Shown in pieces: positions 9,700-52,752 of a DNA stretch of 64,000 nt. The notes beneath the pieces were generated by a model. The model was not told where the DNA came from. It saw nothing but the letters and a program-made list of their open reading frames with translations, and did no database searches. Numbering within the stretch: position 1 is the first letter of the stretch; the number at the start of each line of letters is the position of its first letter. Location: the NCBI GenBank assembly GCA_963821645.1, contig CAWGEQ010000039.1:5766-69765 (forward strand), given 5' to 3'. Source of the DNA: an uncultured delta proteobacterium (GTDB lineage: Bacteria; Desulfobacterota; RBG-13-43-22). A program made the translations under genes and the position numbers.

Positions 9700-9806
9700 C
9701 TGTTATGCGTAAAATACCCTTGACAAAGGGCTTAATTGATATAAACTTTAAATTAACCCTCGCCTATATTGCTTGAATATAATCCGATTTGCGGCGAAGT
9801 AGTTTT

Positions 9807-9934
9807 CATCCGGAAATTCAAGATTTCCGGATAGCTTTCAGCAGTTAGCCCAACTCTCCAATGATAAAAGGTTTTGCTGAAAGCTAAAAGCTGATGGCTT
9901 AATGCTCCATCCGGAAGAGGGTCGTTTCCGGATG
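9807..9934. repeat. tccggaaa-hairpin / TCAGCTN-heptamer element (R1)
   Basis: Hairpin tcatccggaaattcaagatttccggata, left arm ctttcagcagttagc, right arm gctgaaagctaaaagctgatggc, second hairpin catccggaagagggtcgtttccggatgg. Same family as 10563-10706, 13448-13599 and 60078-60196. Confidence 0.7.
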
Positions 9935-9959
9935 GATACTATTTACAAAGGAGGCCCAA

Positions 9960-10274
9960 ATGTCTAAAGAAAAAGAAATACGATGTTATGGGTTTCAAAC
10001 TTCTTCTGGGAGATGGCAAGGAGTATGCCTTGATTTTAACTTGGCCGCCGAAGCCGATACCATAGATCAGCTAAAGAGTAAAATGGGTGATATTATAAAA
10101 AGTTATATTGAAAGCGTTCTGGATACACCCGATAAATCCTCCATTATTGCCCTATTAAACCGTAAGGCTCCTTTCAAGAATTGGGTTCTTTATTATTTAA
10201 TAAAATCAATTATATTTATAAAAGAGATCCGCACCATAAGTACTTTTCAAAACACGGCCGATGTCCCGTTATAG
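9960..10274 (+). CDS. HicB-like antitoxin
   Basis: 104 aa. N-terminal HicB-like pattern (RWQGVCLDFNLAAEADTIDQLKSKMGDIIKSYIESV). Sits directly upstream of a HicA-like gene. RBS aaaggagg. Confidence 0.5.
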   Translation: MSKEKEIRCYGFQTSSGRWQGVCLDFNLAAEADTIDQLKSKMGDIIKSYIESVLDTPDKSSIIALLNRKAPFKNWVLYYLIKSIIFIKEIRTISTFQNTADVPL

Positions 10275-10526: not shown

Positions 10527-10562
10527 GATTTTATGGACCTGGGCAGACTTGGTTCCAACTTT

Positions 10563-10706
10563 TCATCCGGAAATCCAAGATTTCCGGATAGCTTTCAGCA
10601 GTCAGCGCTCAGCATTTAGCCCAACTTCCCAATGATAAAGCATTTTGCTGAAAGCTAAGAGCTGATGGCTTCATGCTTCATCCGGAAGAGGGTCGTTTCC
10701 GGATGG
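10563..10706. repeat. tccggaaa-hairpin / TCAGCTN-heptamer element (R2)
   Basis: Near copy of 9807-9934 with extra heptamer units (gtcagcgctcagca). Confidence 0.7.
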
Positions 10707-10730
10707 ATACTATTTACAAAGGAGGCCCAA

Positions 10731-10951
10731 ATGTCTAAAGAAAAAGAAATACGATGTTATGGGTTTCGAACTTCTTCTGGGAGATGACAAGGAGTATGCC
10801 TTGATTTTAACTTGGCCGCCGAAGCTGATACTATAGATCAGCTAAAAGAGTAAAATGGGTGATATTATAAAAAGTTATATTGAAAGCGTTCTGGATACAC
10901 CCGATAAATCCACCATTATTGGCCTATTGAACCGTAAGGCTCCTTTCAGAA
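10731..10951 (+). pseudogene. decayed duplicate of the hicB-like gene
   Basis: Same first ~220 nt as 9960.., but with TGG to TGA (gggagatgacaagg) and a 1-nt insertion (gctaaaagagtaaaatg). Homology stops near 10951. Confidence 0.7.
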
Positions 10952-12020: not shown

Positions 12021-13431
12021 TTATAAATAATCATTAACAATGCCCACCAAATCATAGGGGTGGGCCTCAATAATCTTGACTTGTACTATCTCCCCGATCT
12101 TCGGTTCCCCATCGGTAATATAGACCACTCCATCCACCTCCGGGGCCTGAAAACGGGTCCGGCCTTGAATCAATAACTCGCTTTCCGGACTGATCCCGCT
12201 TACCAGGACCGGCTCCAGAGAACCGATCCGGTTTTCATTCTTCTTAAGAGAAATTTTCTTCTGGGTCTCCATTAAGAGATCCAGCCGGGCCTTACCGATT
12301 TCTTCCGGCACCTGGTCCGCATAGCCGGCAGCCGGGGTGCCTTCTTCCCGGGAATATCTGAAAACTCCGAGATGATCGAACCCCGTCTCGGAAACAAAAT
12401 CAACCAGCTCCTGAAAATCTTCTTCTGTTTCCCCGGGAAAGCCCACCATGACCGTGGTCCGAAGGGCCGCTTGCGGGAGTGTGCGACGAATTTTTTGGAT
12501 CAAGTCCCTCAAGGCTTTTTGCCCGTAGGGCCGATTCATGGCCTTAAGAATCCGGTCGCTGATATGTTGTATGGGGATGTCTAAATAAGGACAGATCTTT
12601 TCCTCTTGGGCCATCAAGGCTAAAAGGTCCGGGGTAATCCTTTCCGGCCGCAAATAAAGCAGGCGCAGCCATTGAAGGGACTCTATCTTTAACAATTCAA
12701 CAATCAACTCGTTCAAAGAAAGCGGCTGAACAAGATCGGACCCGTAAGCCGTCGTATCCTGGGCGATCAGGATGAGTTCACGGACCCCCTGCCCTGCCAG
12801 GATCTGCGCTTCCTGAATCAGCACCTTTGGGTCGCGGCTGCGGAAGGGTCCCCGGATAGAAGGGATTGTGCAGTAGGCACAGCGATTGGAACACCCCTCG
12901 GCGATCTTCAAATAAGCCGTTCCCGGAGAGGTGGTCAGGAGACGGCCATGCGGTTCTGCCCACAGTCCGGGAACAGGATCCAAAATCATTTTATGCGTTT
13001 TTCTCCCGGCCAGAAGGGCGGATACCTGATCGGCCACGGTCAAAAAAGATTCCGTGCCCAGGAAGAGATCCACTTCGGGTAATTGATCTATCAACTCAAT
13101 TCCCATATCTTTGTGGAAAACACCCGGTGACCACCAGGATCTGACAGGCCCCTTCCTCCTTTAATCGGGCCGCCTCTAAAATAGTGTCGATGCTTTCCTG
13201 GGTGGCGGATTCGATAAAGCTGCAAGTATTGATCAGGATCACTTCAGCCTTATCAGGGTCCTGAGTCAAAGAAAAACCCTTGGCCTCCAATTGATGGAGC
13301 ATGATCTCGCTGTCCACCTGATTCTTGGCACAGCCGAGGCTGATGAAATAGATCTTGGGAAAAGAAGGGGTCGAGGGGTCCAGGATTCGAGGATTCGAGG
13401 GTTTCGTTTTTGGGTTTGATTTGCTTTTCAT
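12021..13431 (-). pseudogene. rimO: ribosomal protein S12 methylthiotransferase RimO, one frameshift near 13100 (or sequencing error)
   Basis: ORFs 13096..13431 (ISLGCAKNQVDSE, VVTGCFPQRYG) and 12021..13106 (radical-SAM CSNRCAYCTIPSIRGPFRSR, C-terminal TRAM) lie in different frames. Confidence 0.85.
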
Positions 13432-13447
13432 TTGACTCCTTAGTTCA

Positions 13448-13599
13448 TGTCCATCCGGAAACAGTATCTTTCCGGATGGAGCGGTCAGCTATCAGCTGTT
13501 AGCTTTCAGCAAAATCTTTTACATTAATGAGTTAGCTGAATGCTGATCGCTGACTGCTAAAAGCTTCATCCGGGAATTTTGGATTTCCGGATGAGAATA
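13448..13599. mobile_element. MITE-like copy (R3) of the tccggaaa/TCAGCTN element inserted in the rimO leader
   Basis: 152 bp between TTCA (13444-13447) and TTCA (13600-13603). The paralogous leader at 15401-15420 has a single TTCA and no insert. Confidence 0.6.
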
Positions 13600-13663
13600 T
13601 TCACCAGACACCGAGAACACCGAGCAGAATCTTGTTTTATGAAGAAACGGGAGCCCCGTTTCT

Positions 13664-13846
13664 TCATGAGCGTATGGAACCATTGGGTTGTTTAAGCTCT
13701 ACGTTCCGGCAAACCTCAATATAAACAACCGATGGGCTTACCTTATCCACTGCGGTTATTACCGCCGTGGAATAGGCGTCCAGCAGGTCCTCGTCGGAAG
13801 GGACCGGTCTGCCTTGCGTCTCGAGTCTGCATGCCAAATCTTTCAT
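13664..13846 (-). pseudogene. N-terminal fragment of an HtrA/DegP-like serine protease
   Basis: 60 aa, DEDLLDAYSTAVITAVDKVSPSVVYIEV matches the region preceding the trypsin-like domain and then stops. A 14-bp hairpin follows (13639-13669). Confidence 0.4.
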
Positions 13847-14062
13847 CGGATACTAATCTAAGAACCTTTTTCATTACTTTCTCCTGCAAGGTGCCGTATT
13901 CGAAATATTTAAATCTAATCATCCCAAGGGAGTTTTGCAACCGCAAACGATGAGGGATTAAGGCGGGTGGTCCACCTAACAATTTGAGGATGTTTATAAA
14001 AAAGGGCTGGCCGGAAGTTTTGTCCCCGGATTCAAAAACCGCATGGAGAACATTTGACCGCT

Positions 14063-14188
14063 AATTCGCCACGGTGCTGAAGGTCATACGGGTCCTCGGC
14101 TTGCGCCTGCACGCAACAACGGCACATTCATAACCTTCATCCCGGAAAGATAGCTCACCTGGGCGGATGGGCGGTTCCTAATATTCCC
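14063..14188. repeat. ~126-bp direct repeat, left copy, flanking higBA
   Basis: Aligns with 15042-15168 (aattcgcc..gtgctgaaggtcatacg...gcacgcaacaacggcacatt.ataaccttcatcccgg...ggcggatgg.cggttcc.aatatt). Internal dyad tgaaggtcat / ataaccttca. Confidence 0.7.
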
Positions 14189-14228
14189 CCAACTTATATT
14201 GTGTACCCGGAAAATCGTAATTTTTTTC

Positions 14229-14258
14229 TTGACAAATCGTAACCCGTGGGGTTACATT
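14229..14258 (+). promoter_or_regulatory. putative higBA promoter with palindromic operator
   Basis: TTGACA 14229-14234. Palindrome gtaacccgtggggttac 14239-14255 overlaps a -10-like tacatt. ATG follows at 14265 (near-leaderless). Confidence 0.45.
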
Positions 14259-14264
14259 TTGATC

Positions 14265-14543
14265 ATGATCAAGTCATTTAAGCATAAAGGTCTTGAGGAT
14301 TTCTTTTATACAGGAAAGAAGAAAGGTATAAAGCCTGAACATGGCGACCGGCTTGAGAGAATTCTTGATAGATTAAATTCCGCCAACGAATTAAAAGATA
14401 TGAATTATCCAGGTTCTCACCTCCACAAGTTGATGGGAGATAAAAAAGAGCACTATGCTGTAAAAGTATCCGGGAACTGGAGGCTTTTTTTTGAGTTCAG
14501 AGGCGGCGATGTCTATCTGGTTGATTACAACGATTATCACTGA
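14265..14543 (+). CDS. higB: HigB-type (RelE/ParE family) toxin
   Basis: MIKSFKHKGLEDFFYTGKKKGIKPEHGDRLERILDRL...NWRLFFEF..GDVYLVDYNDYH is the typical proteic-killer pattern. The internal ATG of ORF 14199..14543 is chosen as start. Confidence 0.8.
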   Translation: MIKSFKHKGLEDFFYTGKKKGIKPEHGDRLERILDRLNSANELKDMNYPGSHLHKLMGDKKEHYAVKVSGNWRLFFEFRGGDVYLVDYNDYH

Positions 14544-14554
14544 GAGGTAAGAGC

Positions 14555-14869
14555 ATGAGAAAAATCGGAAGAAAACCAACCCACCCTGGGAAGATTATAA
14601 AAGAAGATTATTTAAAACCATTATCCCTCACGATCAGCGAATTGGCCTCGACTCTCGGCGTTTCAAGAAAAACGTTATCAAAGATTATTAATGAAAGAGG
14701 CGCTGTTACTCCGGATATGGCACTTCGTTTATCCCGAGCCTTTGAAACGACCCCTGATCTTTGGCTTAATCTACAAAAGAATTACGATTTGTGGCAGGCA
14801 GAGCATACATCGGATGATTGGCAAACGGTAAAACCGCTCTCTCTACAGGTGCTTCATGCTCAGTCATAG
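14555..14869 (+). CDS. higA: HigA-family antitoxin (XRE HTH)
   Basis: HPGKIIKEDYLKPLSLTISELASTLGVSRKTLSKIINERGAVTPDMALRLSRAF. Confidence 0.85.
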   Translation: MRKIGRKPTHPGKIIKEDYLKPLSLTISELASTLGVSRKTLSKIINERGAVTPDMALRLSRAFETTPDLWLNLQKNYDLWQAEHTSDDWQTVKPLSLQVLHAQS

Positions 14870-15041
14870 ACAGGGCCGCAGAGACGGCCCTTGAGGAAGG
14901 AGACCCTGATGCTGTGCTGGCGGGCCGTCGCTTTGAGAAGGATATCAGTCCCGCGCCAAAGGAATGAGCCCGGATAGCTCTGAGACCGGGCTTGGGCGCA
15001 AAAGCCTGCATATAAGCGCCTTGTCTCCGAAGGAAATCCCA

Positions 15042-15168
15042 AATTCGCCCACAGTGCTGAAGGTCATACGAGCTCTGGGCTTAGCGCTTGCACGCAACAA
15101 CGGCACATTGATAACCTTCATCCCGGTAGATCTAATCCCTTTCCGGCGGATGGACGGTTCCAATATTG
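15042..15168. repeat. ~127-bp direct repeat, right copy, flanking higBA
   Basis: See 14063-14188. Confidence 0.7.
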
Positions 15169-15346
15169 CTCCCCAGTCCTTTAACCGGATTGAACTCAGA
15201 CCGACAGTACACAGAAATTTCTAAATGGAATGAAGAACCTCCCCTGGATCACTGGAAATTAATCCTGACAAATTTCGGCCCTACTCCCAAATTGGTCAAA
15301 TTGTCCCCTAATTGTCAATATAAAAGATTTGATCCCAATTACTTCG

Positions 15347-15445
15347 GAGGGGTCGAGGATTCGAGGGTTTCGATTTTGGGTTTGATTTGCTTTTCATTTG
15401 ACTCCTTGGTTCACCACGAGACACCGAGGACACCGAGTAAAATCC
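15347..15445 (-). repeat. duplicate of the rimO RBS plus first ~17 codons and the CACNGAG repeat
   Basis: Reverse complement reads gattttactcggtgtcctcggtgtctcgtggtgaaccaaggagtcaaatgaaaagcaaatcaaacccaaaatcgaaaccctcgaatcctcg. Matches 13365-13443 plus 13600-13630. Confidence 0.75.
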
Positions 15446-19304: not shown

Positions 19305-19403
19305 AAGGTATAAGGTCCACGGTTTACGGGTTTTTAACCTTGGACCTCATACCTTGCACCTTTCACCTTTCACCTTGACCTTGAACCTTATACCTTGCAC
19401 CTT
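19305..19403. repeat. inverted AAGGTNC / GNACCTT heptamer array
   Basis: 19305-19324 pairs with 19336-19355 at 18/20, followed by further ACCTT-type units. Confidence 0.8.
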
Positions 19404-19407
19404 CTTT

Positions 19408-20151
19408 TCAAATCGCCACCAACTCCATCTTCCCCCAGACGCCTACCTGATCCCCAATAATGATCAAGACCCCTTCCACCTGGGGAATCTGCCGGGCCCA
19501 ATCCAAGGCCGGTTGAATATCGTTTTTGGTCTGTACCCGGTTACCTACGGCCGTAGCCAGGGCATCGGAGAGCACAGCCGAAGGAGATAACAGGGTTACC
19601 GCATCGGCCTTGCCGAAGCTTAGAGAATGACCCACCGTGCCCGACGAAGTGCAGAGTCCTCTGGGTGTTGGAGATGGGTCCAGCCGGATTCCTAATCTCT
19701 GACTCAAAGGAGACTGCCCGGCATAAATCCCGATGGTCAAAGGTTCAGGGCAAAGGATAAATAAATCCCCGCCGTTTTCAATGATAATGTCCTTCGATTC
19801 GGCCAATAAATCCTGACCGACAAATTGGGCCATGGCCCCGGCCACGGCCGCCATGGGGCCGACTCCGGCAATCCGAGCGGCTTGAAGCATGGCCTGGACA
19901 ATAGGCGGGGCCAGGGGGTCCAAGGCCAGGGGCTGGAGTGCTTCCTTGAATTCAGGGTTTTGTCGGATATAACTTTCCAGGGCATGGCGGTATTGATAAA
20001 CCCGTTCATACCCTTCGGCCGAAAGATTTTTCCTGGCCCGCACCCAGAGGTCGGTTTCTTTGACCTGGACGGTGAAAGAGACCCAATCCGGAGAATTGAT
20101 TTTACTGCGGTAGAACCGTTCCTGATGTTCAATCATAATAAAATGGTTCAA
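19408..20151 (-). CDS. UPF0280 / ApbE-like family protein
   Basis: 247 aa. GVGPMAAVAGAMAQFVG, IIENGGDLF, CTSSGTVGHSLSFGKADAVT, LSDALATAVGN. Confidence 0.7.
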   Translation of the reverse strand: MNHFIMIEHQERFYRSKINSPDWVSFTVQVKETDLWVRARKNLSAEGYERVYQYRHALESYIRQNPEFKEALQPLALDPLAPPIVQAMLQAARIAGVGPMAAVAGAMAQFVGQDLLAESKDIIIENGGDLFILCPEPLTIGIYAGQSPLSQRLGIRLDPSPTPRGLCTSSGTVGHSLSFGKADAVTLLSPSAVLSDALATAVGNRVQTKNDIQPALDWARQIPQVEGVLIIIGDQVGVWGKMELVAI

Positions 20152-20407
20152 GGTACAAGGTGCAAGGTTCGAGGTTAAAGGTCAAGGATCGAGGATCGAA
20201 CATCAAGGTCTAAGGTACAAGGTACAAGGTTCAAGGTTCAGAAGGTCCAAGGTCTGAGGTCACAAACCGTCCAAGTACCTTGCCTTTGTACTGACAAGCT
20301 ATGGTTTCCAACGGTTTATGCATCCAATACACGGCTTACGGCTTTTCCTTATCCCCTTGAACCTTGAACTTTTTACCTTGTGCCTTAAACCTTGAACCTT
20401 AAACCTT
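20145..20407. repeat. inverted AAGGTNC / GNACCTT heptamer array filling the whole UPF0280-dnaE spacer
   Basis: Left arm 20145-20262 (about 16 units), unique centre, right arm 20354-20407. Confidence 0.8.
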
Positions 20408-20410
20408 TTT

Positions 20411-23400
20411 CTATGGATAAACCACTTCCAAAATCGGATGGCAGGAGATGCCCTTTAGTTCTCTTCTTAACCTGGCCGAAGGCCGGATATTCTGGGTTTC
20501 CGGAAGGTTCAACAGGACCTGGCTTTTATCGGGAAGACAGGCGCAAATCTGGACCGGACAGGCGCCGGGATGTCCCTTTAAAAAATCGGATAACTCGATG
20601 ATCCGATCCCGGGTCAGACCTTCTACCGGAATCTTGAGAACGGCCTGCTGGGCCATTTTTTCTTCGGCCTCGGTCAGGAGCAGCATATCATTGGCAATCA
20701 CCTTGATCCCTTTTTCATCCTTGGTGGTAAACCCGGCAATCCACAAGGGACCTTCTTCTTTCAGGACCGTCGATGATTTTCGGTAAACATCCGAAAAAAT
20801 GATGACCTCACAGGAGCCGGTCAGATCTTCAATGGTGGCAAAGGCCATCCGCTCCCCTTTTTTGCTGTTGATCTCTTTCAAGGCCGCCACCATACCGACC
20901 AAACGCACATTTTCTTTGTCCTCATAGTCGGCCAAGGCCTGGATATCGACTGTCTTTAAGTCCGGTAAACTCTCGGCATAGCGGGTCAGGGGATGGCCGG
21001 TGATATAAAAACCCAGGATTTCCTTTTCATAGGAAAGCTTTTGGCTCTCTCTCCATTCTTCAGCCATCGGAGGCTCGATATCGGGGCGGGTTAACCCCGA
21101 ATCTCCTCCCATGGAAAAAAGACTGAACTGATTTTCGGTCTGTTCTTTTTGACGCTGCTGCCCTATCTCCAGGGCTTCGGGTAAAAAGGCCATCAGCCTG
21201 GCCCGGGCCACTCCCAGGGAATCAAAGGCCCCGCATTTAATCAGGCTTTCCACCACCCGGCGATTCACCCGGCGAAGATCCACCCGCTGACAAAAATCGA
21301 TCAGGGACTTGAAGGCCCCCTCCTTCTTTCTGGCCTCGAGGATGGACTCAATGGCCCCGGCCCCGACATTTTTCACCGCCGCCAACCCGAAACGGATCTT
21401 GTCTTCCACCACGGCAAAATCCAATGGACTCAGGTTCACATCGGGCGGCAGGACCACGATCCCTTTTTCCCGGCATTCGGTGATGCATTTGGTCACTTCC
21501 GTTGAATTGCCCATCTTGCTGGTCACCAAAGCGACCATAAAATCCAGAGGATAATGGGCCTTCAGATAGGCGGTCTGGTAGGTAATCAGGGCATAGGCGG
21601 CACTGTGGGACTTGTTGAAACCGTAGCCGCCGAAGGTCTCCATATTTTTAAAAATGGCTTCGGCCTTCTTTTGATCGATTTTTTTCTTTTTGGTCCCATC
21701 CAGAAAGCGGCTTTTCTGCTGGGCCATGACCTCGGGGATCTTTTTACCCATGGCCTTGCGCAAGATGTCGGCCTCTCCCATGGAATAATCGGCCATCAGA
21801 CCGGCGATCTGCATAACCTGCTCCTGATAGACGATAATCCCCAGGGTTTCTTTCAATACCCCTTCCAGGAGGGGATGCGGATATTCTACCGGTACTTCCC
21901 CATGTTTTCTCTTGATATAATCCGCCACCATCCCGCTATTTAAAGGGCCGGGGCGATAGAGGGCATTGAGGGCGATGAGGTCTTCAAAATTCTGGGGTTG
22001 GCTCTTGATCAAAAGGTCCTTCATGCCCGAACTTTCCAATTGAAACACCCCGGTAGTATCCCCTCGGGCTAATAGTTGGTAAGTTTCCGGATCATCCAAG
22101 GGGATCCGAATCAAATCAATCTTGAGGCCGTGGGTCCGTTCGATGGTCCTTAAGGCATACTGGATGATGGTCAGGTTGTTCAAGCCCAGGAGGTCGAACT
22201 TGATCAGGCCCATTTCCTGGACCGATTTCATTTCATACTGGGTCAGGATTTCACCCTTGGGGCCTTTGTATAAGGGAACGGTCTCGGTGATGGGATGGGG
22301 GGAAATGACCACGCCGGCGGCGTGGGTGGAGGCATGGCGGGGAAGTCCCTCCAGGGCTTCGGCAATGGTCAGCAGTTCTTTAATGGTCGGATCGGTTTCC
22401 TTCAGCTCTTTAAGCCGGGGCTCCGCCTCGAGGGCTTCTTTTAAAGTAATGTTTAATTTCGAAGGGATCAGCTTGGCGATCTTATCCACTTCGCCATAAG
22501 GGATATTCAGGGCCCGCCCCACATCCCGAATGACGGCCCGGGCCTGCATCTTTCCAAAAGTGATGATCTGGGCCACATGCTCTTGCCCATATTTCCCGGC
22601 AATGTATTTCAAGACCTCATCCCGCCGTTCTACGCAGAAATCCACGTCGATATCCGGGAGTTCTTTTCGTTCCAGGTTCAGAAAGCGCTCAAAGATCAGG
22701 CCGTAATCCAAAGGATCGATATCGGTAATCCCCAGGGAATAGGCCACCAGACTCCCGGCCCCGGAACCCCGGCCGGGTCCGACCGGAATCCCTTGCTGCT
22801 TGGCAAACCCCACATAATCGGCCACGACCAAAAAATATCCGGAAAATCCCGTTGTGGTGATTACCATCAGTTCCTTTTCCAGGCGGTCCCGATACTCTTT
22901 AAAACGCGACGGGGGAAAGGAGGGATCCAGTTGTTCCTTCATTGACAGTCTTTTCTCCAGACCGGCGCGGGCCTCATTTTTAAGCCGGCCGTCCATGGTC
23001 TCTTCCGGGGGCAAGGGATAGCGGGGGAGAAAAGATTGGCCGAAGTTCAATTCCAGGTTGCAGCGATCGGCAATGCGCAGGGTATTTTGGATGGCTTCCG
23101 GCAAGTCTGAAAAAAGGGCCGTCATCTCTTCCGGTGATTTGAAATAAAGCTGATTGGTGGAAAAACGCAACCGGTTGGGGTCTTCAACGGTCTTCCCGGT
23201 CTGGATGCAAAGCAAGACGTCATGGGCCTTGGACTCTTCCTGGGTCAGGTAATGACAATCGTTGGTGGCCACGATGGGTATGCCCAACTGACGGTGGATC
23301 TCCAGCAACCCCTTATTGACGATTTCCTGCTCGGGGATATCGTTTTTTTGCAGTTCAAGAAAAAAACGATCCTGATCGAAGATCTCGGCCATTTCCCGGG

Positions 23401-23836
23401 TGATTTTTAAAGCCCGGTCATAGTCGTTATTAAGCAAGGCATAGGGGATTTCGCCGTGAAGACAGGCCGACAGGGCGATCAATCCTTTATGATGCTCCTT
23501 CAGAAGCTCCCGGTCGATCCTGGGTTTATAATAAAAACCTTCAAAATAGGCCTGGGTCACCAATTTGACTAAGTTACGATAACCCTTTTCATTTTTGCAG
23601 AGCAAGACCAAGTGGAAGGCGTTTTCCCTGTGGGGATGGCCCTCTTTATCAAAGCGGCTTCCCGGGGCCACATACATTTCGCAGCCGATGATGGGTTTCA
23701 GTCCATGTTTCTGGGCCTGTTTATAAAACTCCACCATGCCGAAGATGTTGCCGTGATCGGTCATGGTTATGGCCGGGAGTTTGAAGGCCTGGGCCTTTTC
23801 AAACAACTCTTTGAGCCTTATCTCACCATCCAGCAA
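20411..23836 (-). CDS. dnaE: DNA polymerase III alpha subunit, downstream duplicate: complete C-terminus, lacks native start
   Basis: 1141 aa with PHP, polymerase core, OB and C-terminal domains. Frame is open only from a stop at 23915-23917. First usable start is TTG 23836, so the first 17 aa including part of HLHLHTQYS are missing. Confidence 0.85.
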   Translation of the reverse strand: MLDGEIRLKELFEKAQAFKLPAITMTDHGNIFGMVEFYKQAQKHGLKPIIGCEMYVAPGSRFDKEGHPHRENAFHLVLLCKNEKGYRNLVKLVTQAYFEGFYYKPRIDRELLKEHHKGLIALSACLHGEIPYALLNNDYDRALKITREMAEIFDQDRFFLELQKNDIPEQEIVNKGLLEIHRQLGIPIVATNDCHYLTQEESKAHDVLLCIQTGKTVEDPNRLRFSTNQLYFKSPEEMTALFSDLPEAIQNTLRIADRCNLELNFGQSFLPRYPLPPEETMDGRLKNEARAGLEKRLSMKEQLDPSFPPSRFKEYRDRLEKELMVITTTGFSGYFLVVADYVGFAKQQGIPVGPGRGSGAGSLVAYSLGITDIDPLDYGLIFERFLNLERKELPDIDVDFCVERRDEVLKYIAGKYGQEHVAQIITFGKMQARAVIRDVGRALNIPYGEVDKIAKLIPSKLNITLKEALEAEPRLKELKETDPTIKELLTIAEALEGLPRHASTHAAGVVISPHPITETVPLYKGPKGEILTQYEMKSVQEMGLIKFDLLGLNNLTIIQYALRTIERTHGLKIDLIRIPLDDPETYQLLARGDTTGVFQLESSGMKDLLIKSQPQNFEDLIALNALYRPGPLNSGMVADYIKRKHGEVPVEYPHPLLEGVLKETLGIIVYQEQVMQIAGLMADYSMGEADILRKAMGKKIPEVMAQQKSRFLDGTKKKKIDQKKAEAIFKNMETFGGYGFNKSHSAAYALITYQTAYLKAHYPLDFMVALVTSKMGNSTEVTKCITECREKGIVVLPPDVNLSPLDFAVVEDKIRFGLAAVKNVGAGAIESILEARKKEGAFKSLIDFCQRVDLRRVNRRVVESLIKCGAFDSLGVARARLMAFLPEALEIGQQRQKEQTENQFSLFSMGGDSGLTRPDIEPPMAEEWRESQKLSYEKEILGFYITGHPLTRYAESLPDLKTVDIQALADYEDKENVRLVGMVAALKEINSKKGERMAFATIEDLTGSCEVIIFSDVYRKSSTVLKEEGPLWIAGFTTKDEKGIKVIANDMLLLTEAEEKMAQQAVLKIPVEGLTRDRIIELSDFLKGHPGACPVQICACLPDKSQVLLNLPETQNIRPSARLRRELKGISCHPILEVVYP

Positions 23837-23938
23837 GCTGTACTGGGTATGGAGATGGAGATGGACAAACGGGGCTTGAGAACGGCTGCTGGGCCATTTT
23901 TTCTTCGGCCTCGGTCAGGAGCTGCATATCATTGGCAA

Positions 23939-26900
23939 TCACCTTGATCCCTTTTTCGCCTTGGTGGTAAACCCGGCAATCCACAAGGGACCTTCTTCTT
24001 TCAGAACCGTCGATGATTTTCGGTAAACATGAGAAAAAATGATGACCTCACAGGAGCCGGTCAGATCTTCAATGGTGGCAAAGGCCATCCGCTCCCCTTT
24101 TTTGCTGTTGATCTCTTTTAAGGCCGCCACCATACCGACCAAACGCACATTTTCTTTGTCCTCATAGTCGGCCAAGGCCTGGATATCGACTGTCTTTAAG
24201 TCCGGTAAACTCTCGGCATAGCGGGTCAGGGGATGGCCGGTGATATAAAAACCCAGGATTTCCTTTTCATAGGAAAGCTTTTGGCTCTCTCTCCATTCTT
24301 CAGCCATCGGAGGCTCGATATCGGGGCGGGTTAATCCAGAATCTCCTCCCATGGAAAAAAGACTGAACTGATTTTCGGTCTGTTCTTTCTGACGCTGCTG
24401 CCCTATCTCCAGGGCTTCGGGTAAAAAGGCCATCAGCCTGGCCCGGGCCACTCCCAGGGAATCAAAGGCCCCGCATTTAATCAGGCTTTCCACCACCCGG
24501 CGATTCACCCGGCGAAGATCCACCCGCTGACAAAAATCGATCAGGGACTTGAAGGCCCCCTCCTTCTTTCTGGCCTCTAAGATGGACTCAATGGCCCCGG
24601 CACCGACATTTTTCACCGCCGCCAACCCGAAACGGATCTTGTCTTCCACCACGGCAAAATCCAATGGACTCAGATTCACATCGGGCGGCAGGACCACGAT
24701 CCCTTTTTCCCGGCATTCGGTGATGCATTTGGTCACCTCCGTTGAATTGCCCATCTTGCTGGTCACCAAAGCGACCATAAAATCCAGAGGATAATGGGCC
24801 TTCAGATAGGCGGTCTGGTAGGTAATCAGGGCATAAGCGGCGCTGTGGGACTTGTTGAAACCGTAGCCGCCAAAGGTTTCCATATTTTTAAAAATGGCTT
24901 CGGCCTTCTTTTGATCAATTTTTTTCTTTTTGGTCCCATCCAGAAAGCGGCTTTTCTGCTGGGCCATGACCTCGGGGATCTTTTTACCCATGGCCTTGCG
25001 CAAGATGTCGGCCTCTCCCATGGAATAATCGGCCATCAGACCGGCGATCTGCATAACCTGCTCCTGATAGACGATAATCCCCAGGGTTTCTTTCAATACC
25101 CCTTCCAGGAGGGGATGCGGATATTCTACCGGTACTTCCCCATGTTTTCTCTTGATATAATCCGCCACCATCCCGCTATTTAAAGGGCCGGGGCGATAGA
25201 GGGCATTGAGGGCGATGAGGTCTTCAAAATTCTGGGGTTGGCTCTTGATCAAAAGGTCCTTCATGCCCGAACTTTCCAATTGAAACACCCCGGTAGTATC
25301 CCCTCGGGCCAATAGTTGGTAAGTTTCCGGATCATCCAAGGGGATCCGAATCAAATCAATCTTGAGGCCGTGGGTCCGTTCGATGGTCCTTAAGGCATAC
25401 TGGATGATGGTCAGGTTGTTCAAGCCCAGGAGGTCGAACTTGATCAGGCCCATATCCTGGACCGATTTCATTTCATACTGGGTCAGGATTTCACCCTTGG
25501 GGCCTTTATATAAGGGAACGGTCTCGGTGATGGGATGGGGGGAAATGACCACGCCGGCGGCGTGGGTGGAGGCATGGCGGGGAAGTCCCTCCAGGGCTTC
25601 GGCAATGGTCAGCAGTTCTTTAATGGTCGGATCGGTTTCCTTCAGCTCTTTAAGCCGGGGCTCCGCCTCAAGGGCTTCTTTTAAAGTAATGTTTAATTTC
25701 GAAGGGATCAGCTTGGCGATCTTATCCACTTCGCCATAAGGGATATTCAGGGCCCGCCCCACATCCCGAATGACGGCCCGGGCCTGCATCTTTCCAAAAG
25801 TGATGATCTGGGCCACATGCTCTTGCCCGTATTTCCCGGCAATGTATTTTAAGACCTCATCCCGCCGTTCTACGCAGAAATCCACGTCGATATCCGGGAG
25901 TTCTTTTCGTTCCACGTTCAGAAAGCGCTCAAAGATCAGGCCGTAATCCAACGGATCGATATCGGTAATCCCCAGGGAATAGGCCACCAGACTCCCGGCC
26001 CCGGAACCCCGGCCGGGTCCGACCGGAATCCCTTGCTGCTTGGCAAACCCCACATAATCGGCCACGACCAAAAAATATCCGGAAAATCCCGTTGTGGTGA
26101 TTACCGTGAGTTCCTTTTCCAGGCGGTCCCGATACTCTTTAAAACGCGACGGGGGAAAGGAGGGATCCAGTTGTTCCTTCATGGACAGTCTTTTCTCCAG
26201 ACCGGCGCGGGCCTCATTTTTAAGCCGGCCGTCCATGGTCTCTTCCGGGGGCAAGGGATAGCGGGGGAGAAAAGATTGGCCGAAGTTCAATTCCAGGTTG
26301 CAACGATCGGCAATGCGCAGGGTATTTTGGATGGCTTCCGGCAAGTCTGAAAAAAGGGCCGTCATCTCTTCCGGTGATTTGAAATAAAGCTGATTGGTGG
26401 AAAAACGCAACCGGTTGGGGTCTTCAACGGTCTTCCCGGTCTGGATGCAAAGCAAGACGTCATGGGCCTTGGCCTCTTCCTGGGTCAGATAATGACAGTC
26501 ATTAGTAGCCACTATGGGGAGACCCAACTGACGGCTGATTTCCAACAAACCCTTGTTGACGATTTCCTGTTCCGGGATATCATTCTTTTGCAGTTCAAGA
26601 AAAAAACGATCCTGATCGAAGATCTCGGCCATTTCCCGGGTGATTTTTAAAGCCCGGTCATAGTCTTTATTAAGCAAGGCATAGGGGATTTCGCCGTGAA
26701 GACAGGCCGACAGGGCGATCAATCCTTTATGATGCTCCTTCAGGAGTTCCCGGTCGATCCTGGGTTTATAATAAAAACCTTCGAAATAGGCCTGGGTCAC
26801 CAATTTGACTAAGTTACGATAACCCTTTTCATTTTTGCAGAGCAAGACCAGGTGGAAGGCGTTTTCCCTGTGGGGATGGCCCTCTTTATCGAAGCGGCTT

Positions 26901-27124
26901 CCCGGGGCCACATACATTTCGCAGCCGATGATGGGTTTCAGTCCATGTTTCTGGGCCTGTTTATAAAACTCCACCATGCCGAAGATGTTGCCGTGATCGG
27001 TCATGGTTATGGCCGGGAGTTTGAAGGCCTGGGCCTTTTCAAACAACTCTTTGAGCCTTATCTCCCCATCCAGCAAGCTGTACTGGGTATGGAGATGGAG
27101 ATGGACAAACGGGGCGTGGGGCAT
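23939..27124 (-). CDS. dnaE: DNA polymerase III alpha subunit, upstream duplicate: native start, C-terminally truncated by a 1-nt deletion
   Basis: Starts MPHAPFVHLHLHTQYSLLDG (ATG 27124). Collinear with the other copy, with 8 aa differences. Ends ...GFTTKAKKGSR, about 100 aa short. Confidence 0.85.
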   Translation of the reverse strand: MPHAPFVHLHLHTQYSLLDGEIRLKELFEKAQAFKLPAITMTDHGNIFGMVEFYKQAQKHGLKPIIGCEMYVAPGSRFDKEGHPHRENAFHLVLLCKNEKGYRNLVKLVTQAYFEGFYYKPRIDRELLKEHHKGLIALSACLHGEIPYALLNKDYDRALKITREMAEIFDQDRFFLELQKNDIPEQEIVNKGLLEISRQLGLPIVATNDCHYLTQEEAKAHDVLLCIQTGKTVEDPNRLRFSTNQLYFKSPEEMTALFSDLPEAIQNTLRIADRCNLELNFGQSFLPRYPLPPEETMDGRLKNEARAGLEKRLSMKEQLDPSFPPSRFKEYRDRLEKELTVITTTGFSGYFLVVADYVGFAKQQGIPVGPGRGSGAGSLVAYSLGITDIDPLDYGLIFERFLNVERKELPDIDVDFCVERRDEVLKYIAGKYGQEHVAQIITFGKMQARAVIRDVGRALNIPYGEVDKIAKLIPSKLNITLKEALEAEPRLKELKETDPTIKELLTIAEALEGLPRHASTHAAGVVISPHPITETVPLYKGPKGEILTQYEMKSVQDMGLIKFDLLGLNNLTIIQYALRTIERTHGLKIDLIRIPLDDPETYQLLARGDTTGVFQLESSGMKDLLIKSQPQNFEDLIALNALYRPGPLNSGMVADYIKRKHGEVPVEYPHPLLEGVLKETLGIIVYQEQVMQIAGLMADYSMGEADILRKAMGKKIPEVMAQQKSRFLDGTKKKKIDQKKAEAIFKNMETFGGYGFNKSHSAAYALITYQTAYLKAHYPLDFMVALVTSKMGNSTEVTKCITECREKGIVVLPPDVNLSPLDFAVVEDKIRFGLAAVKNVGAGAIESILEARKKEGAFKSLIDFCQRVDLRRVNRRVVESLIKCGAFDSLGVARARLMAFLPEALEIGQQRQKEQTENQFSLFSMGGDSGLTRPDIEPPMAEEWRESQKLSYEKEILGFYITGHPLTRYAESLPDLKTVDIQALADYEDKENVRLVGMVAALKEINSKKGERMAFATIEDLTGSCEVIIFSHVYRKSSTVLKEEGPLWIAGFTTKAKKGSR

Positions 27125-27133
27125 CTTTAATCC

Positions 27134-27355
27134 AGGTATAAGGTACAAGGTGCAAGGTGTAAGGTTAAAAACAACAAACTTCCTCTATGCTTTGAGCTTA
27201 TTTGTTTGCAATATATTTTTCTCCCTCTTACATCCCACATCTTATCCCTTGCCTCCTGATCCCTTAATTCTTTGGGTTTGCACCCTGCGTCTTAACCTTG
27301 CACCTTGGACCTTATACCTTGAACCCTTCACCTTGTACCTTGGGCCTTGCACCTT
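27134..27355. repeat. inverted AAGGTNC / GNACCTT heptamer array (dnaE-guaA spacer)
   Basis: Left arm 27134-27167, ~125-nt centre, right arm 27293-27355. Confidence 0.8.
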
Positions 27356-28934: not shown

Positions 28935-28970
28935 GGTTTAAGGTTCAAGGTATAAGGTCTACGGTTGAGG
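28935..28970. repeat. AAGGTNC-type arm flanking the four-helix-bundle gene
   Basis: ggtttaaggttcaaggtataaggtctacggttgagg. 13-nt perfect complement (caaggtataaggt) to 29365-29398. Confidence 0.75.
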
Positions 28971-28978
28971 AAAAAACA

Positions 28979-29335
28979 TTAATTCTTTGATCTGGCTTGA
29001 ATCAATTTTGTTAACATACTTGAAATGGCTTGACATTCATTCTGTATGTGGATGAGATTTTCCTGATTTATGTAACCTATTTCAAAAGAAATAAGCGCTT
29101 GTGTTAATAGTTCGGCCAGAGAACCTTTAGCCATAAAAAAATACTGAACAGATTGCTTGTTGGTTTTTAATTCATCTCCTTCTGCGATATTGCTCGGAAC
29201 GGATACCGCAGCCCGACGAATCTGGTCTCTCAAACCATAATCTTTGGAAAAAGGTCCTTCATTGGTTAATTGGTAAATAAAAACGGCCAAAATTTTTGCT
29301 CGTTGCCAGACTTTTAAGTCGAAGAAGTTTCCCAT
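28979..29335 (-). CDS. four-helix-bundle protein (23S rRNA intervening-sequence protein family)
   Basis: 118 aa. DLKVWQRA, LRDQIRRAAVSVPSNIAEG, AKGSLAELLTQ. More AT-rich than guaA/guaB. Confidence 0.85.
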   Translation of the reverse strand: MGNFFDLKVWQRAKILAVFIYQLTNEGPFSKDYGLRDQIRRAAVSVPSNIAEGDELKTNKQSVQYFFMAKGSLAELLTQALISFEIGYINQENLIHIQNECQAISSMLTKLIQARSKN

Positions 29336-29364: not shown

Positions 29365-29397
29365 TACCTTGGACCTTACACCTTATACCTTGGACCT

Positions 29398-29398
<1 letters not shown>
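29365..29398. repeat. GNACCTT-type arm flanking the four-helix-bundle gene
   Basis: taccttggaccttacaccttataccttggacctt. Abuts the guaB stop codon. Confidence 0.75.
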
Positions 29399-31029
<1,631 letters not shown>

Positions 31030-35375: not shown

Positions 35376-35668
35376 TCATTCATAATCAAAGTTGTTTAAA
35401 AAACCTAAATCGTGGGCAAGTAATAGATGATATTCCAACTCACTGGCGGAACCCATAGCTATTTGAAAAAAGCGGGCCATTTCAGCTTCGCTATTTCTGC
35501 CACACCCTTCCGCAATATTGGCCGGGAATAGAGATACAGGCCCTTCTAACCTGGCTGGTCAATCCGTAACAATTCTTCCTTTGGAAAGCTTAATGTCTTC
35601 TTATACACTTTCAGAGTTAATTGATGGCTTTTCTGCCAAACCATCAATTCTTTAAAATTTTTCAGATG
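35376..35668 (-). pseudogene. decayed four-helix-bundle (23S rRNA IVS-protein family) gene
   Basis: Minus strand reads [40 protein letters not shown]. The +1 frame then reads [47 protein letters not shown]. No start codon, one frameshift. Confidence 0.7.
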
Positions 35669-43715: not shown

Positions 43716-45002
43716 ATGTTGGACCTAAAACTGATTCGGGAACGGTTGGCCTGGGTCAAGGATCGGCTGTCCCTGCGCGGCCAGGATTTGCCCTGGGAAA
43801 CCTTTGAGTCTTTAGATAAGGAACGCCGGGAGATCCTCCAAGAGACAGAGTCCTTAAAGCACCGTCGCAATGTGGTTTCCGAGCAGATCGGCAGGAAGAA
43901 ACAGGAAAAACAAGAGGCCCGGGAAGCCATTGAGGAAATGCGTCAAGTTTCAAAAAGGATCAAGGAATTTGATGATGCCTTAACCCTGATTGAAGAGAAA
44001 TTCTCGGCCATACTGCTTACCTTGCCCAATATTCCTCATGAATCGGTTCCCGTCGGTTATTCCAGCGATGACAACCCGGTCGTTCGCACCTGGGGCGACA
44101 AACCGATTTTTTCTTTCTCCCCCCGGCCCCACTGGGAGATCGGAGAAGCCTTGGATATCCTCGACTTCGAAAGGGCCACCCGGATGACCGGGGCCCGTTT
44201 TGTAGTTTATAAAGGGCCGGGGGCCAGACTGGAACGGGCCCTGATCAATTTTATGCTCGACCTGCACACCAAAACCCATGGATACACCGAAATCCTCCCC
44301 CCTTTCATGGTCAACAGCCAAAGCATGACCGGCACCGGTCAATTGCCCAAATTTAGGGATGAGCTGTTTAAATTGGAAGGATGGGATTATTATTTGATCC
44401 CCACGGCCGAAGTGCCGGTGACCAACCTCTTTCAGCAGGAAACCCTTTCCGCCCAGGAACTGCCCAAATATTTTGTGGCCTGTACCCCTTGCTTTCGATC
44501 CGAAGCCGGTTCTTACGGCAAAGATACCCGTGGCCTTATACGCCAGCATCAGTTCAACAAAGTGGAGTTGGTGAAATTCAGTCTCCCTGAAGATTCTTAC
44601 GCCGAGCTGGAAGCTTTGCTGGGAAACGCCGAAGAGGTCCTTAAACGGTTGCAGTTGCCCTATCAGGTGGTCAGCCTTTGTACCGGCGATCTGGGGTTTT
44701 CTTCGGCCAAGACCTATGATATCGAAGTATGGCTCCCCGGACAAAATCTATACCGGGAAATATCTTCCTGCAGCAATTTTGAAGATTTTCAGGCTCGCCG
44801 GGCCAATATCCGTTTTCGTCGGGAAGGCAGGTCCAAGACCGAGCTGGTCCACACCTTGAATGGCTCCGGCTTGGCTGTGGGCCGAACCCTGGTAGCCCTC
44901 TTAGAAAACTACCAGCAAGCCGACGGCAGCATCCTGATCCCGCCGGCCTTGCAGCCTTACATGGACGGCATCGAGCGGATAACCAAAAGGTGCAAGGTAT
45001 AA
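43716..45002 (+). CDS. serS: seryl-tRNA synthetase
   Basis: 428 aa. N-terminal coiled coil, class II motifs ([16 protein letters not shown]). Confidence 0.95.
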
Positions 45003-45091
45003 GGTATAAGGTTCAAGATACAAGAAAAAATTTAAAAACCTTACGACCTTGGCATCAACCCGTGAACCTTATACCTTGGACCGTGGACCTT
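44987..45091. repeat. inverted heptamer array between convergent serS and queD
   Basis: aaggtgcaaggtataaggtataaggttcaag ... aaccttacgaccttgg..gtgaaccttataccttggaccgtggacctt. The last 5 serS codons lie in the left arm. Confidence 0.75.
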
Positions 45092-52700: not shown

Positions 52701-52752
52701 AAGGTCAAAGGTCAAAGGTCAAAGGTCAAAGGTCAAAGGTCAACAGGTCAAA
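52701..52752. repeat. six perfect tandem AAGGTCA units plus one variant
   Basis: aaggtca x6 (52701-52742), then acaggtca. Confidence 0.9.

What the first reader, a model, noticed from the sequence alone, without database searches (positions are those of the whole stretch)
20633..27114. Head-to-tail 3.24-kb near-identical duplication inside dnaE leaves two individually incomplete polymerase genes
20633-23874 and 23875-27114 align base-for-base at an offset of 3240-3242 nt (for example 20761 vs 24001, 23821 vs 27061). The upstream copy keeps the native start (MPHAPFVHLHLHTQYS). A 1-nt deletion (tttttcgcc at ~23955 vs tttttcatcc at 20711-20720) ends it about 100 aa early. The downstream copy has the full C-terminus. 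Its frame opens only after a stop at 23915-23917, and no ATG or GTG precedes TTG 23836, so it lacks the first 17 aa of the PHP domain. The junction (ctcaag|ccccgtttgtcc, ~23874) joins the C-terminal region to codon ~5 with about 1 nt of microhomology. That is not what a k-mer collapse would produce. The copies differ by 8 aa. They also differ by about 19 substitutions packed into ~125 nt (23222-23345 vs 26462-26585), while the rest is almost identical, which looks like a gene-conversion or recombination patch. The redundant 70-nt stub 23875-23945 carries three changes, including two 1-nt deletions. As written, an essential replicase has no single intact gene.
Basis: partly seen in the sequence, partly recalled or inferred. 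Interest (0 to 1): 0.75.

Follow-up and report, generated by a model that had tools for sequence, protein, structure and literature searches.

The report
Doubled dnaE gene, probably an assembly artefact
The sequence really does contain two head-to-tail, 98% identical copies of most of the replicative DNA polymerase gene, but they look like the alleles of two co-occurring strains strung together by an error-prone long-read metagenome assembly, not a real broken replicase.

Summary
Window 20633-23878 (copy A) and 23875-27118 (copy B) are a spacerless direct repeat on the minus strand. It has 3244 aligned nt, 59 substitutions and 2 one-nt deletions (98.2% identity). Neither ORF is a complete dnaE.

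The biological reading is probably wrong.
- The copies differ like orthologous alleles of separate strains. 47 of 59 changes are at third codon positions, and dN/dS is 0.054.
- Copy A is closer to a single-copy dnaE from another sample (L003, 99.0%) than to copy B.
- Five related contigs all have one dnaE in the same guaA-dnaE-abpE context.
- The four long-read relatives each carry private 1-nt indels in dnaE. The window has similar indels breaking three other conserved genes.
- Copy B's only two indels lie within 84 nt of the junction.
- The 20-substitution patch matches a different lineage (L085). It is an import into one allele, not conversion between the copies.
- A duplication with both ends inside an essential gene would destroy it.

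Best explanation: a haplotype concatenation or false duplication, an error class documented for long-read metagenome assemblers (about 0.78). A real inter-strain recombinant remains possible (about 0.15). Only read mapping across 23874/23875 can decide. Interest is low.

The parts
23875..27118 (-). Repeat copy B, upstream in gene orientation. It covers dnaE codon 3 to about residue 1085 and is the divergent allele.
   Evidence: Alignment. By the distance arithmetic, about 46 of the 59 differences fall on copy B's own branch, and at most variable sites copy B's allele is absent from L003, L001 and L004. Mostly third codon positions.
20633..23878 (-). Repeat copy A, downstream in gene orientation. 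Its allele is 99.0% identical to the single-copy dnaE of L003.
23939..27124 (-). ORF B, 1061 aa. It has the native start and the PHP, palm, fingers, HhH and partial OB domains. It ends early after a 1-nt deletion at about 23958.
   Evidence: It equals database protein P0002.
20411..23836 (-). ORF A, 1141 aa from TTG. It lacks the first 16 residues, including the HLHLH motif, and has the complete C-terminus.
   Evidence: Database protein P0001 is the same ORF called from a later start.
23874..23875 (-). Junction. The base corresponding to 20633 (after residue 1085, AVLK) is joined to codon 5 of dnaE.
   Evidence: The junction 24-mer is absent from JGI metagenome contigs.
23875..23959 (-). 84-nt stub at the end of copy B. 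It holds the only two indels between the copies, plus two substitutions, and contains the stops at 23939-41 and 23915-17.
   Evidence: The local indel excess has P about 6e-5.
20411..20632 (-). Unique 3' end of dnaE (last 73 codons plus the stop), present once. It corresponds to the C-terminal domain of E. coli alpha, from about residue 1087.
26473..26585 (-). Recombination patch in copy B. It has 20 substitutions against copy A (23233-23345) and matches an L085-like lineage.
27130..27355 (.). Heptamer (AAGGTNN/NNACCTT) arrays in the guaA-dnaE spacer. This region is highly variable between strains (85.7% identity to L003).
20133..20407 (.). Opposing heptamer arrays in the dnaE-abpE spacer. They fold into a long hairpin.

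Best explanation
The tandem dnaE is most likely not a feature of any living genome. It looks like a misjoin in an error-prone long-read (Nanopore/Flye-type) metagenome assembly. The sample probably held two closely related strains of an uncultured Thermodesulfobacteriota (RBG_13_43_22-like) species whose dnaE alleles differ by about 1.8%. The assembler should report one allele, or two alternative contigs. Instead, the contig runs through the allele of one strain (copy B, with its upstream flank) to a point 222 nt before the stop. It then restarts at codon 5 of the other strain's allele (copy A, with its downstream flank). The poor consensus at the false joint explains the two 1-nt deletions next to the junction.

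Shown:
- the structure;
- the allele-like divergence of the two copies;
- a single-copy dnaE in all relatives found;
- indel errors throughout the window and in the relatives.

Inferred:
- the sequencing platform and assembler of the window itself;
- the coexistence of two strains in the sample;
- the absence of reads spanning the junction.
For: 1. The copies diverged as functional genes in separate lineages. There are 47 synonymous and 9 non-synonymous changes, dS 0.069, dN 0.0037, dN/dS 0.054. 47 of 59 changes are at codon position 3, P = 4e-13.
2. Copy A is closer to L003, a single-copy dnaE from another sample, than to copy B (32 vs 59 differences). Copy B is 27-33 differences further than A from each of the close relatives L003, L001 and L004.
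3. Copy B's substitution patch comes from an L085-like lineage (7 vs 20 differences). This is ordinary population recombination in an independent allele.
4. All five related contigs have one dnaE between guaA and abpE and no internal repeat.
5. Error profile. Each of the four long-read relatives has its own private 1-nt indel(s) splitting dnaE. The short-read contig L085 has none. The window has private 1-nt indels breaking ABC_ATPase, miaB and hyp455.
6. Copy B's only two indels lie within 84 nt of the junction. The expected number is 0.011, P = 6e-5.
7. Identity to L003 steps at the junction. Copy B is 97.6% and the upstream flank 97.5%. Copy A is 99.0% and the downstream flank 98.6%. Fisher tests: A vs B P = 8e-6; flanks P = 0.011.
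8. A duplication with both endpoints inside an essential single-copy gene leaves no intact copy. As written, neither ORF is complete, and the junction removes the C-terminal domain from ORF B.
9. Precedent. Long-read metagenome assemblers concatenate subpopulation variants and report direct duplications that no read supports. metaFlye is among the worst for clipping events and unsupported indels (bioRxiv 10.1101/2025.04.22.649783). The Microflora Danica MAGs, whose naming matches that of the relatives' records, were made with Flye 2.9.2 --meta --nano-hq plus one round of Medaka (PMC12313526).
Against: - No reads are available, so support for the junction and the depth across it are untested.
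- The platform and assembler of the window's own contig are inferred from relatives and from the error profile. They are not documented. Exact look-ups of its proteins returned nothing.
- Repeat-graph assemblers usually need spanning reads to lay out a resolved two-copy tandem repeat. A clean spacerless junction with about 1 nt of microhomology is also what genuine illegitimate recombination produces.
- The step in identity across the junction is clear only against L003, not against L001 or L004. It could be ordinary mosaicism.
- No second false duplication was found in the 64-kb window.
Confidence: 0.78

Rival explanations
1. A real, recent in vivo inter-strain recombinant. DNA from one strain, covering the upstream flank plus dnaE up to residue 1085, entered a cell of a sister strain. 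It was fixed by homologous recombination upstream and by an illegitimate microhomology join at codon 5 of the resident dnaE (homology-facilitated illegitimate recombination). Alternatively, a circularised 3.24-kb dnaE fragment integrated by a single crossover. Either route gives a genuine tandem of two alleles.
For: The join is head-to-tail and spacerless with 1-4 nt of microhomology. The two copies are distinct natural alleles. The similarity to L003 steps at the junction, as expected if upstream and downstream DNA have different origins. A resolved tandem in a repeat-graph assembly usually implies spanning reads (general knowledge, not tested).
Against: The product has no intact dnaE. ORF B lacks the C-terminal domain. 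ORF A lacks the promoter, the first 16 residues with the HxH motif, and any canonical start before TTG 23836. Such a cell should be non-viable or strongly counter-selected, and should not reach assembly-level abundance. The structure is absent from all five related contigs and from JGI metagenomes. The two indels clustered at the junction look like consensus errors.
Confidence: 0.15
2. An old, genuine tandem duplication retained in this lineage. Both truncated products would be under selection, for example a polymerase lacking the tau-binding domain alongside an N-terminally shortened full-length enzyme.
For: Both ORFs are free of internal stops, and dN/dS between them is very low.
Against: Copy A is closer to the single-copy gene of L003 than to copy B, so the split between the copies is not younger than the split between strains. 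Tandem 3.2-kb repeats at 98% identity are expected to collapse or homogenise by homologous recombination (general knowledge). No relative keeps the duplication. The stub shows indels rather than the roughly 6 substitutions expected from dS 0.069 over 84 neutral sites.
Confidence: 0.03
3. An artefact at the level of DNA molecules rather than of the assembler. A chimeric read or reads, from a ligation chimera or from two unsplit consecutive reads, would have joined fragments of the two strains and been used as the backbone of the contig.
For: This would explain a junction at arbitrary positions with negligible homology and poor consensus next to it.
Against: A random chimera joining the same locus, in the same orientation, only 3.2 kb out of register is improbable. 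The published pipeline applied a coverage cut-off of 8 to large datasets (PMC12313526).
Confidence: 0.04

Closest known systems
False duplications and concatenated subpopulation haplotypes in long-read metagenome assemblies (Trigodet et al., bioRxiv 10.1101/2025.04.22.649783)
   Same: A long direct repeat sits inside one contig. The copies correspond to variants of one locus from closely related subpopulations. Unsupported indels break ORFs. The conspecific contigs have Flye-style names.
   Different: The defining evidence, reads clipped at the joint or a coverage drop, could not be examined here. The published examples use PacBio HiFi data, and most of them concern structurally different variable regions rather than a 98% identical gene.
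Spontaneous tandem duplication by illegitimate (microhomology) recombination in bacteria
   Same: Head-to-tail layout, no spacer, 1-4 nt of microhomology at the novel joint, kilobase-scale unit.
   Different: New duplications are identical at birth and unstable. These copies differ by 1.8% in an allele-like, purifying-selection pattern, and copy A is nearer to another strain than to copy B. Both endpoints lie inside an essential gene.
Homology-facilitated illegitimate recombination during natural transformation (described in Acinetobacter baylyi, Streptococcus pneumoniae and Pseudomonas stutzeri; from my own knowledge)
   Same: It would join foreign-strain DNA to resident DNA, with one homologous end and one microhomology end. 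It would explain two alleles in tandem and a flank of different ancestry.
   Different: There is no evidence that the molecule exists in vivo, and the product would inactivate dnaE.
Naturally split DnaE of cyanobacteria (dnaE-n / dnaE-c with a split intein)
   Same: The replicative polymerase alpha subunit is encoded by two incomplete ORFs.
   Different: There, the halves do not overlap, lie far apart and carry intein halves. Here, both ORFs cover the same about 1040 residues, lie in tandem and have no intein domain.

Membership tests
DnaE (Pol III alpha subunit, C-family replicative polymerase) | PHP, polymerase core (PF07733), fingers, HhH and OB domains in order | tested here: met
   Both ORFs hit PF02811, PF07733, PF17657, PF14579 and PF01336 with E-values down to 1e-102. 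The closest proteins are annotated as DNA polymerase III subunit alpha. The C-terminus aligns to PDB 5fku and 7pu7 alpha subunits.
DnaE (Pol III alpha subunit, C-family replicative polymerase) | One ORF containing both the N-terminal PHP start (HxH) and the C-terminal domain, as in orthologues of about 1157 aa | tested here: not met
   ORF B stops at residue 1061. ORF A starts at residue 17. Orthologues P0003-P0016 are 1157-1188 aa.
Long-read assembly false duplication / haplotype concatenation | A direct repeat in the contig whose copies are variants of a locus that is single-copy in related genomes | tested here: met
   There is one dnaE in L001, L002, L003, L004 and L085, with the same neighbours, and none of them has a self-repeat.
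Long-read assembly false duplication / haplotype concatenation | The copies carry strain-level (allelic) differences rather than post-duplication decay | tested here: met
   dN/dS is 0.054 and 80% of changes are at codon position 3. Copy A is closer to L003 than to copy B. The patch is imported from an L085-like lineage.
Long-read assembly false duplication / haplotype concatenation | The assembly comes from noisy long reads, shown by unsupported indels that break genes | tested here: inconclusive
   Window-private 1-nt indels sit in ABC_ATPase, miaB and hyp455. Each long-read relative has private indels in dnaE. The window's own record and method could not be retrieved.
Long-read assembly false duplication / haplotype concatenation | Reads clip at the joint, or no read spans it, and the depth of the copies sums to the depth of the flanks | not testable with these tools
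   No read data are available.
Genuine tandem duplication (illegitimate recombination) | A novel head-to-tail joint with little or no homology | tested here: met
   CTCAAG|CCCCG, with 1 nt of microhomology, or 4 nt with one mismatch.
Genuine tandem duplication (illegitimate recombination) | The copies are each other's closest relatives | tested here: not met
   A-L003 is 32 differences, A-B is 59 and B-L003 is 79.
Genuine tandem duplication (illegitimate recombination) | The joint is found in independent sequences | tested here: not met
   The junction 24-mer has no match in JGI metagenome contigs. The proteins P0001 and P0002 occur on one contig only.
Split-intein DnaE | Intein (Hint) halves at the break, and non-overlapping halves | tested here: not met
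   There is no intein family among the Pfam hits, and the two ORFs overlap over about 1040 residues.

The most novel reading that the evidence does not exclude
The junction is real. A natural cell line carries a merodiploid dnaE made of the alleles of two strains, created by one-ended illegitimate recombination after DNA uptake. It survives because one truncated product still supports replication: either the N-terminally shortened ORF A, or ORF B lacking the tau-binding domain.
Probability: 0.12. Interest if true: 0.45.

Novelty: not a real feature. Interest (0 to 1): 0.12.

Why it matters
If it is an artefact, as argued, its main value is quality control. A public MAG contig appears to carry a false 3.2-kb duplication and scattered frameshifts. 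These produce two spurious 'truncated DnaE' proteins in protein databases (P0001 and P0002). The case also shows a cheap way to flag such joins without reads. Compare each copy with conspecific contigs, check whether the differences between copies look allelic (dN/dS, codon position), and look for indels crowding the joint. If the junction were real, it would be a rare natural record of inter-strain illegitimate recombination inside an essential replicase gene. It would then raise the question of how the cell replicates.

Tried and rejected
- Exact-sequence look-ups of the window's ORF B, of P0001 and P0002, and of guaA returned nothing. They were meant to find the source record and sample, which stay unknown.
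It returned only relatives of 53% identity or less.
- The junction 24-mer found nothing in JGI metagenome contigs.
- The supplementary accession tables of PMC12313526 are not held. The link between ERZ250394xx-5xx and Microflora Danica is therefore unconfirmed.
- Gene conversion between the two copies as the origin of the patch was rejected, because the patch matches L085.
- The split-intein and dnaE2/imuC-type paralogue ideas were rejected. The ORFs have no intein domain and are 98% identical.
- The heptamer arrays as the recombination substrate were rejected. Similar arrays flank dnaE in direct orientation (family D3), but the junction lies inside the coding sequence, not in the arrays.
- A haplotype step at the junction was tested with L001 and L004 as well. 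It gave no consistent pattern. Only L003 shows it.
- Rfam found only one tRNA in the window.


Full report
**1. Observation**

A local alignment of the region against itself pairs 20633-23878 with 23875-27118. It has 3244 positions, 59 substitutions and two 1-nt gaps, 98.18% identity. Self-BLAST of the whole window finds this pair and only two short unrelated repeats.

The gene is on the minus strand.
- ORF B runs from ATG 27124 to the stop at 23939. It is 1061 aa and starts with the native MPHAPFVHLHLHTQYS.
- ORF A runs from TTG 23836 to the stop at 20411. It is 1141 aa and has the full C-terminus.
- Both carry the PHP, Pol III alpha core, fingers, HhH and OB domains.

The joint reads ...GTTCTCAAG|CCCCGTTTGTCC. 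The native C-terminal sequence is ...CTCAAGATTCCGG and the native start is ATGCCCCACGCCCCGTTTG. That gives 1 nt of microhomology.

- 8 amino-acid differences between the copies;
- a cluster of 20 substitutions in 125 nt, reached by none of 5000 random placements;
- no canonical start codon upstream of TTG 23836.

Because two 1-nt deletions sit in the last 84 nt of copy B, the unit is now exactly 3240 nt. The two ORFs therefore share a coordinate frame, separated by two stop codons.

**2. Who the relatives are**

A protein search found the window's two ORFs only on one 141,528-bp contig (P0001 and P0002). It also found full-length DnaE proteins of about 1157 aa from uncultured Thermodesulfobacteriota/'Deltaproteobacteria RBG_13_43_22'-like bacteria.

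Four contigs of the same species or genus come from ENA assemblies ERZ25039477, -480, -509 and -551 and have Flye-style names:
- L001, 96-97% nt identity;
- L002, 80%;
- L003, 97.6-99.0%;
- L004, 94-95%.

One more comes from a short-read Logan assembly (L085, 89%). All five have a single dnaE between guaA and abpE, and none contains an internal repeat.

**3. Error profile**

In every long-read relative, dnaE is split by a private 1-nt indel at a different position. The short-read L085 gene is intact.

The window has private 1-nt indels that break three other conserved genes: ABC_ATPase (33456), miaB (about 13100) and a 455-aa gene (835 and 1044). Single-base frameshifts in this assembly therefore cannot be read as biology.

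Copy A has no indel relative to the family. Copy B has exactly two, and both lie within 84 nt of the joint. The expected number is 0.011, P = 6e-5. That fits a badly supported consensus at a false join.

**4. What kind of difference separates the copies**

- 47 of 59 substitutions are at third codon positions (P = 4e-13).
- There are 47 synonymous and 9 non-synonymous changes, with dN/dS 0.054.

The divergence therefore accumulated while each copy was a constrained, functional gene.

Polarising with relatives shows where the changes sit. At most variable sites copy A has the allele shared by L003, L001 and L004, and copy B has a private one.
- Copy A differs from L003 at 32 sites and from copy B at 59.
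- Copy B is 27-33 differences further than copy A from each of the close relatives L003, L001 and L004.

The dense patch in copy B is 7 differences from L085 and 20 from copy A. It is an import from an L085-like lineage, not conversion between the copies.

The two copies are therefore alleles of two strains. They are not paralogues born in this genome.

**5. Flanks**

Identity to L003 is as follows:

| Region | Identity to L003 |
|---|---|
| Copy B | 97.6% |
| Upstream coding flank | 97.5% |
| Copy A | 99.0% |
| Downstream coding flank | 98.6% |

Fisher tests give P = 8e-6 for A vs B and P = 0.011 for the flanks. This fits a change of haplotype at the joint. L001 and L004 show no clear step, so this line of evidence is only moderate.

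**6. Functional consequence if real**

A duplication with both endpoints inside the gene leaves no intact copy.
- The joint falls after residue 1085, which aligns to about residue 1087 of E. coli alpha, at the start of the C-terminal domain. From my own knowledge, this is the tau-binding domain.
- ORF A lacks its promoter, any Shine-Dalgarno-like sequence and the first 16 residues, including the HxH motif of the PHP domain.

For an essential gene that is single-copy in all relatives, such a genome should not reach assembly-level abundance.

**7. Precedent**

Trigodet et al. (bioRxiv 10.1101/2025.04.22.649783) report that long-read metagenome assemblers:
- concatenate subpopulation-specific variants;
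- report long direct duplications that no read supports;
- introduce unsupported indels that break ORFs.

metaFlye is among the worst offenders for clipping events and unsupported indels. The Microflora Danica MAGs were built with Flye 2.9.2 --meta --nano-hq and one round of Medaka (PMC12313526). Their 'MFDxxxxx.bin / contig_N' naming matches the style of the relatives' records. I could not confirm that the ERZ accessions belong to that project, and I could not retrieve the window's own record.

**8. Verdict**

The best explanation is an assembly or sequencing artefact that placed the dnaE alleles of two co-occurring strains in tandem (confidence 0.78).

The main rival is a real inter-strain recombinant, formed by homology-facilitated illegitimate recombination or by integration of a circularised fragment (0.15). 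It fits the clean microhomology joint and the change in flank identity, but it requires a viable cell without an intact replicase.

An old, selected duplication (0.03) is contradicted by the tree and by its absence from all relatives. A chimeric-read backbone (0.04) is possible but improbable, given the same locus, the same orientation and only 3.2 kb of offset.

Only read mapping or a junction PCR can settle the question.

**9. Side observations**

- Lineage-specific intergenic heptamer arrays that form long hairpins.
- A higBA-like cassette inserted upstream of miaB, flanked by a 61-nt duplication.
- A 393-nt repeat pair.
- An Avd/23S-IVP-like ORF between guaB and guaA.

Noticed in passing
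window 19305-19403, 20143-20407, 27133-27355, 28940-28965, 29366-29398, 30997-31029, 44987-45091, 52701-52740: Intergenic arrays of a 7-nt unit, (AAGGTNN)n on one strand and (NNACCTT)n on the other. A three-unit pattern gives 46 hits, against 0 in shuffles. Opposing arrays within one spacer pair into long imperfect hairpins: the dnaE-abpE spacer folds at -101 kcal/mol, z = -6.9. They occur in the close relatives L001-L004 and in none of 81 other fetched loci. They recall the heptameric STRR repeats of cyanobacteria (from my own knowledge), but their function here is unknown.
   Followed up: partly
window 26473-26585 (copy B) vs L085: The 20-substitution patch of copy B is nearly identical to a relative of only about 89% overall identity (L085: 7 differences, against 20 to copy A). 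It is a short homologous-recombination import across a species-level distance inside dnaE.
   Followed up: yes
window 13387-15413: A stretch of about 1.9 kb that is absent from L001 and L004 lies upstream of miaB. It carries a higB/higA-like toxin-antitoxin pair (ORFs 14199-14543 and 14555-14869). It is flanked by a 61-nt direct repeat of the miaB 5' end (13387-13447 and 15353-15413, 97% identical).
   Followed up: partly
window 33456; about 13096-13102; 835 and 1044: Window-private 1-nt indels split conserved genes that are intact in relatives: ABC_ATPase (570 aa), miaB (467 aa) and a 455-aa hypothetical protein. They are most likely consensus errors of the assembly.
   Followed up: yes
window 9803-10180 and 10560-10951: A pair of direct repeats of about 390 nt at 92% identity with 16 gap positions. 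Similar sequence occurs in intergenic DNA of L001 and L004. The element was not identified.
   Followed up: no
window 28979-29335 (minus strand); remnant at 35394-35568: A 118-aa ORF of the PF05635 family (23S rRNA intervening-sequence protein, an Avd-like four-helix bundle) lies between guaB and guaA and is conserved in L001 and L003. A weak second match looks like a frameshifted remnant.
   Followed up: no
L004 9141-10478: A group II intron-type reverse transcriptase (RVT_1 + GIIM) lies downstream of the dnaE neighbourhood in relative L004. It is absent from the corresponding part of the window.
   Followed up: no
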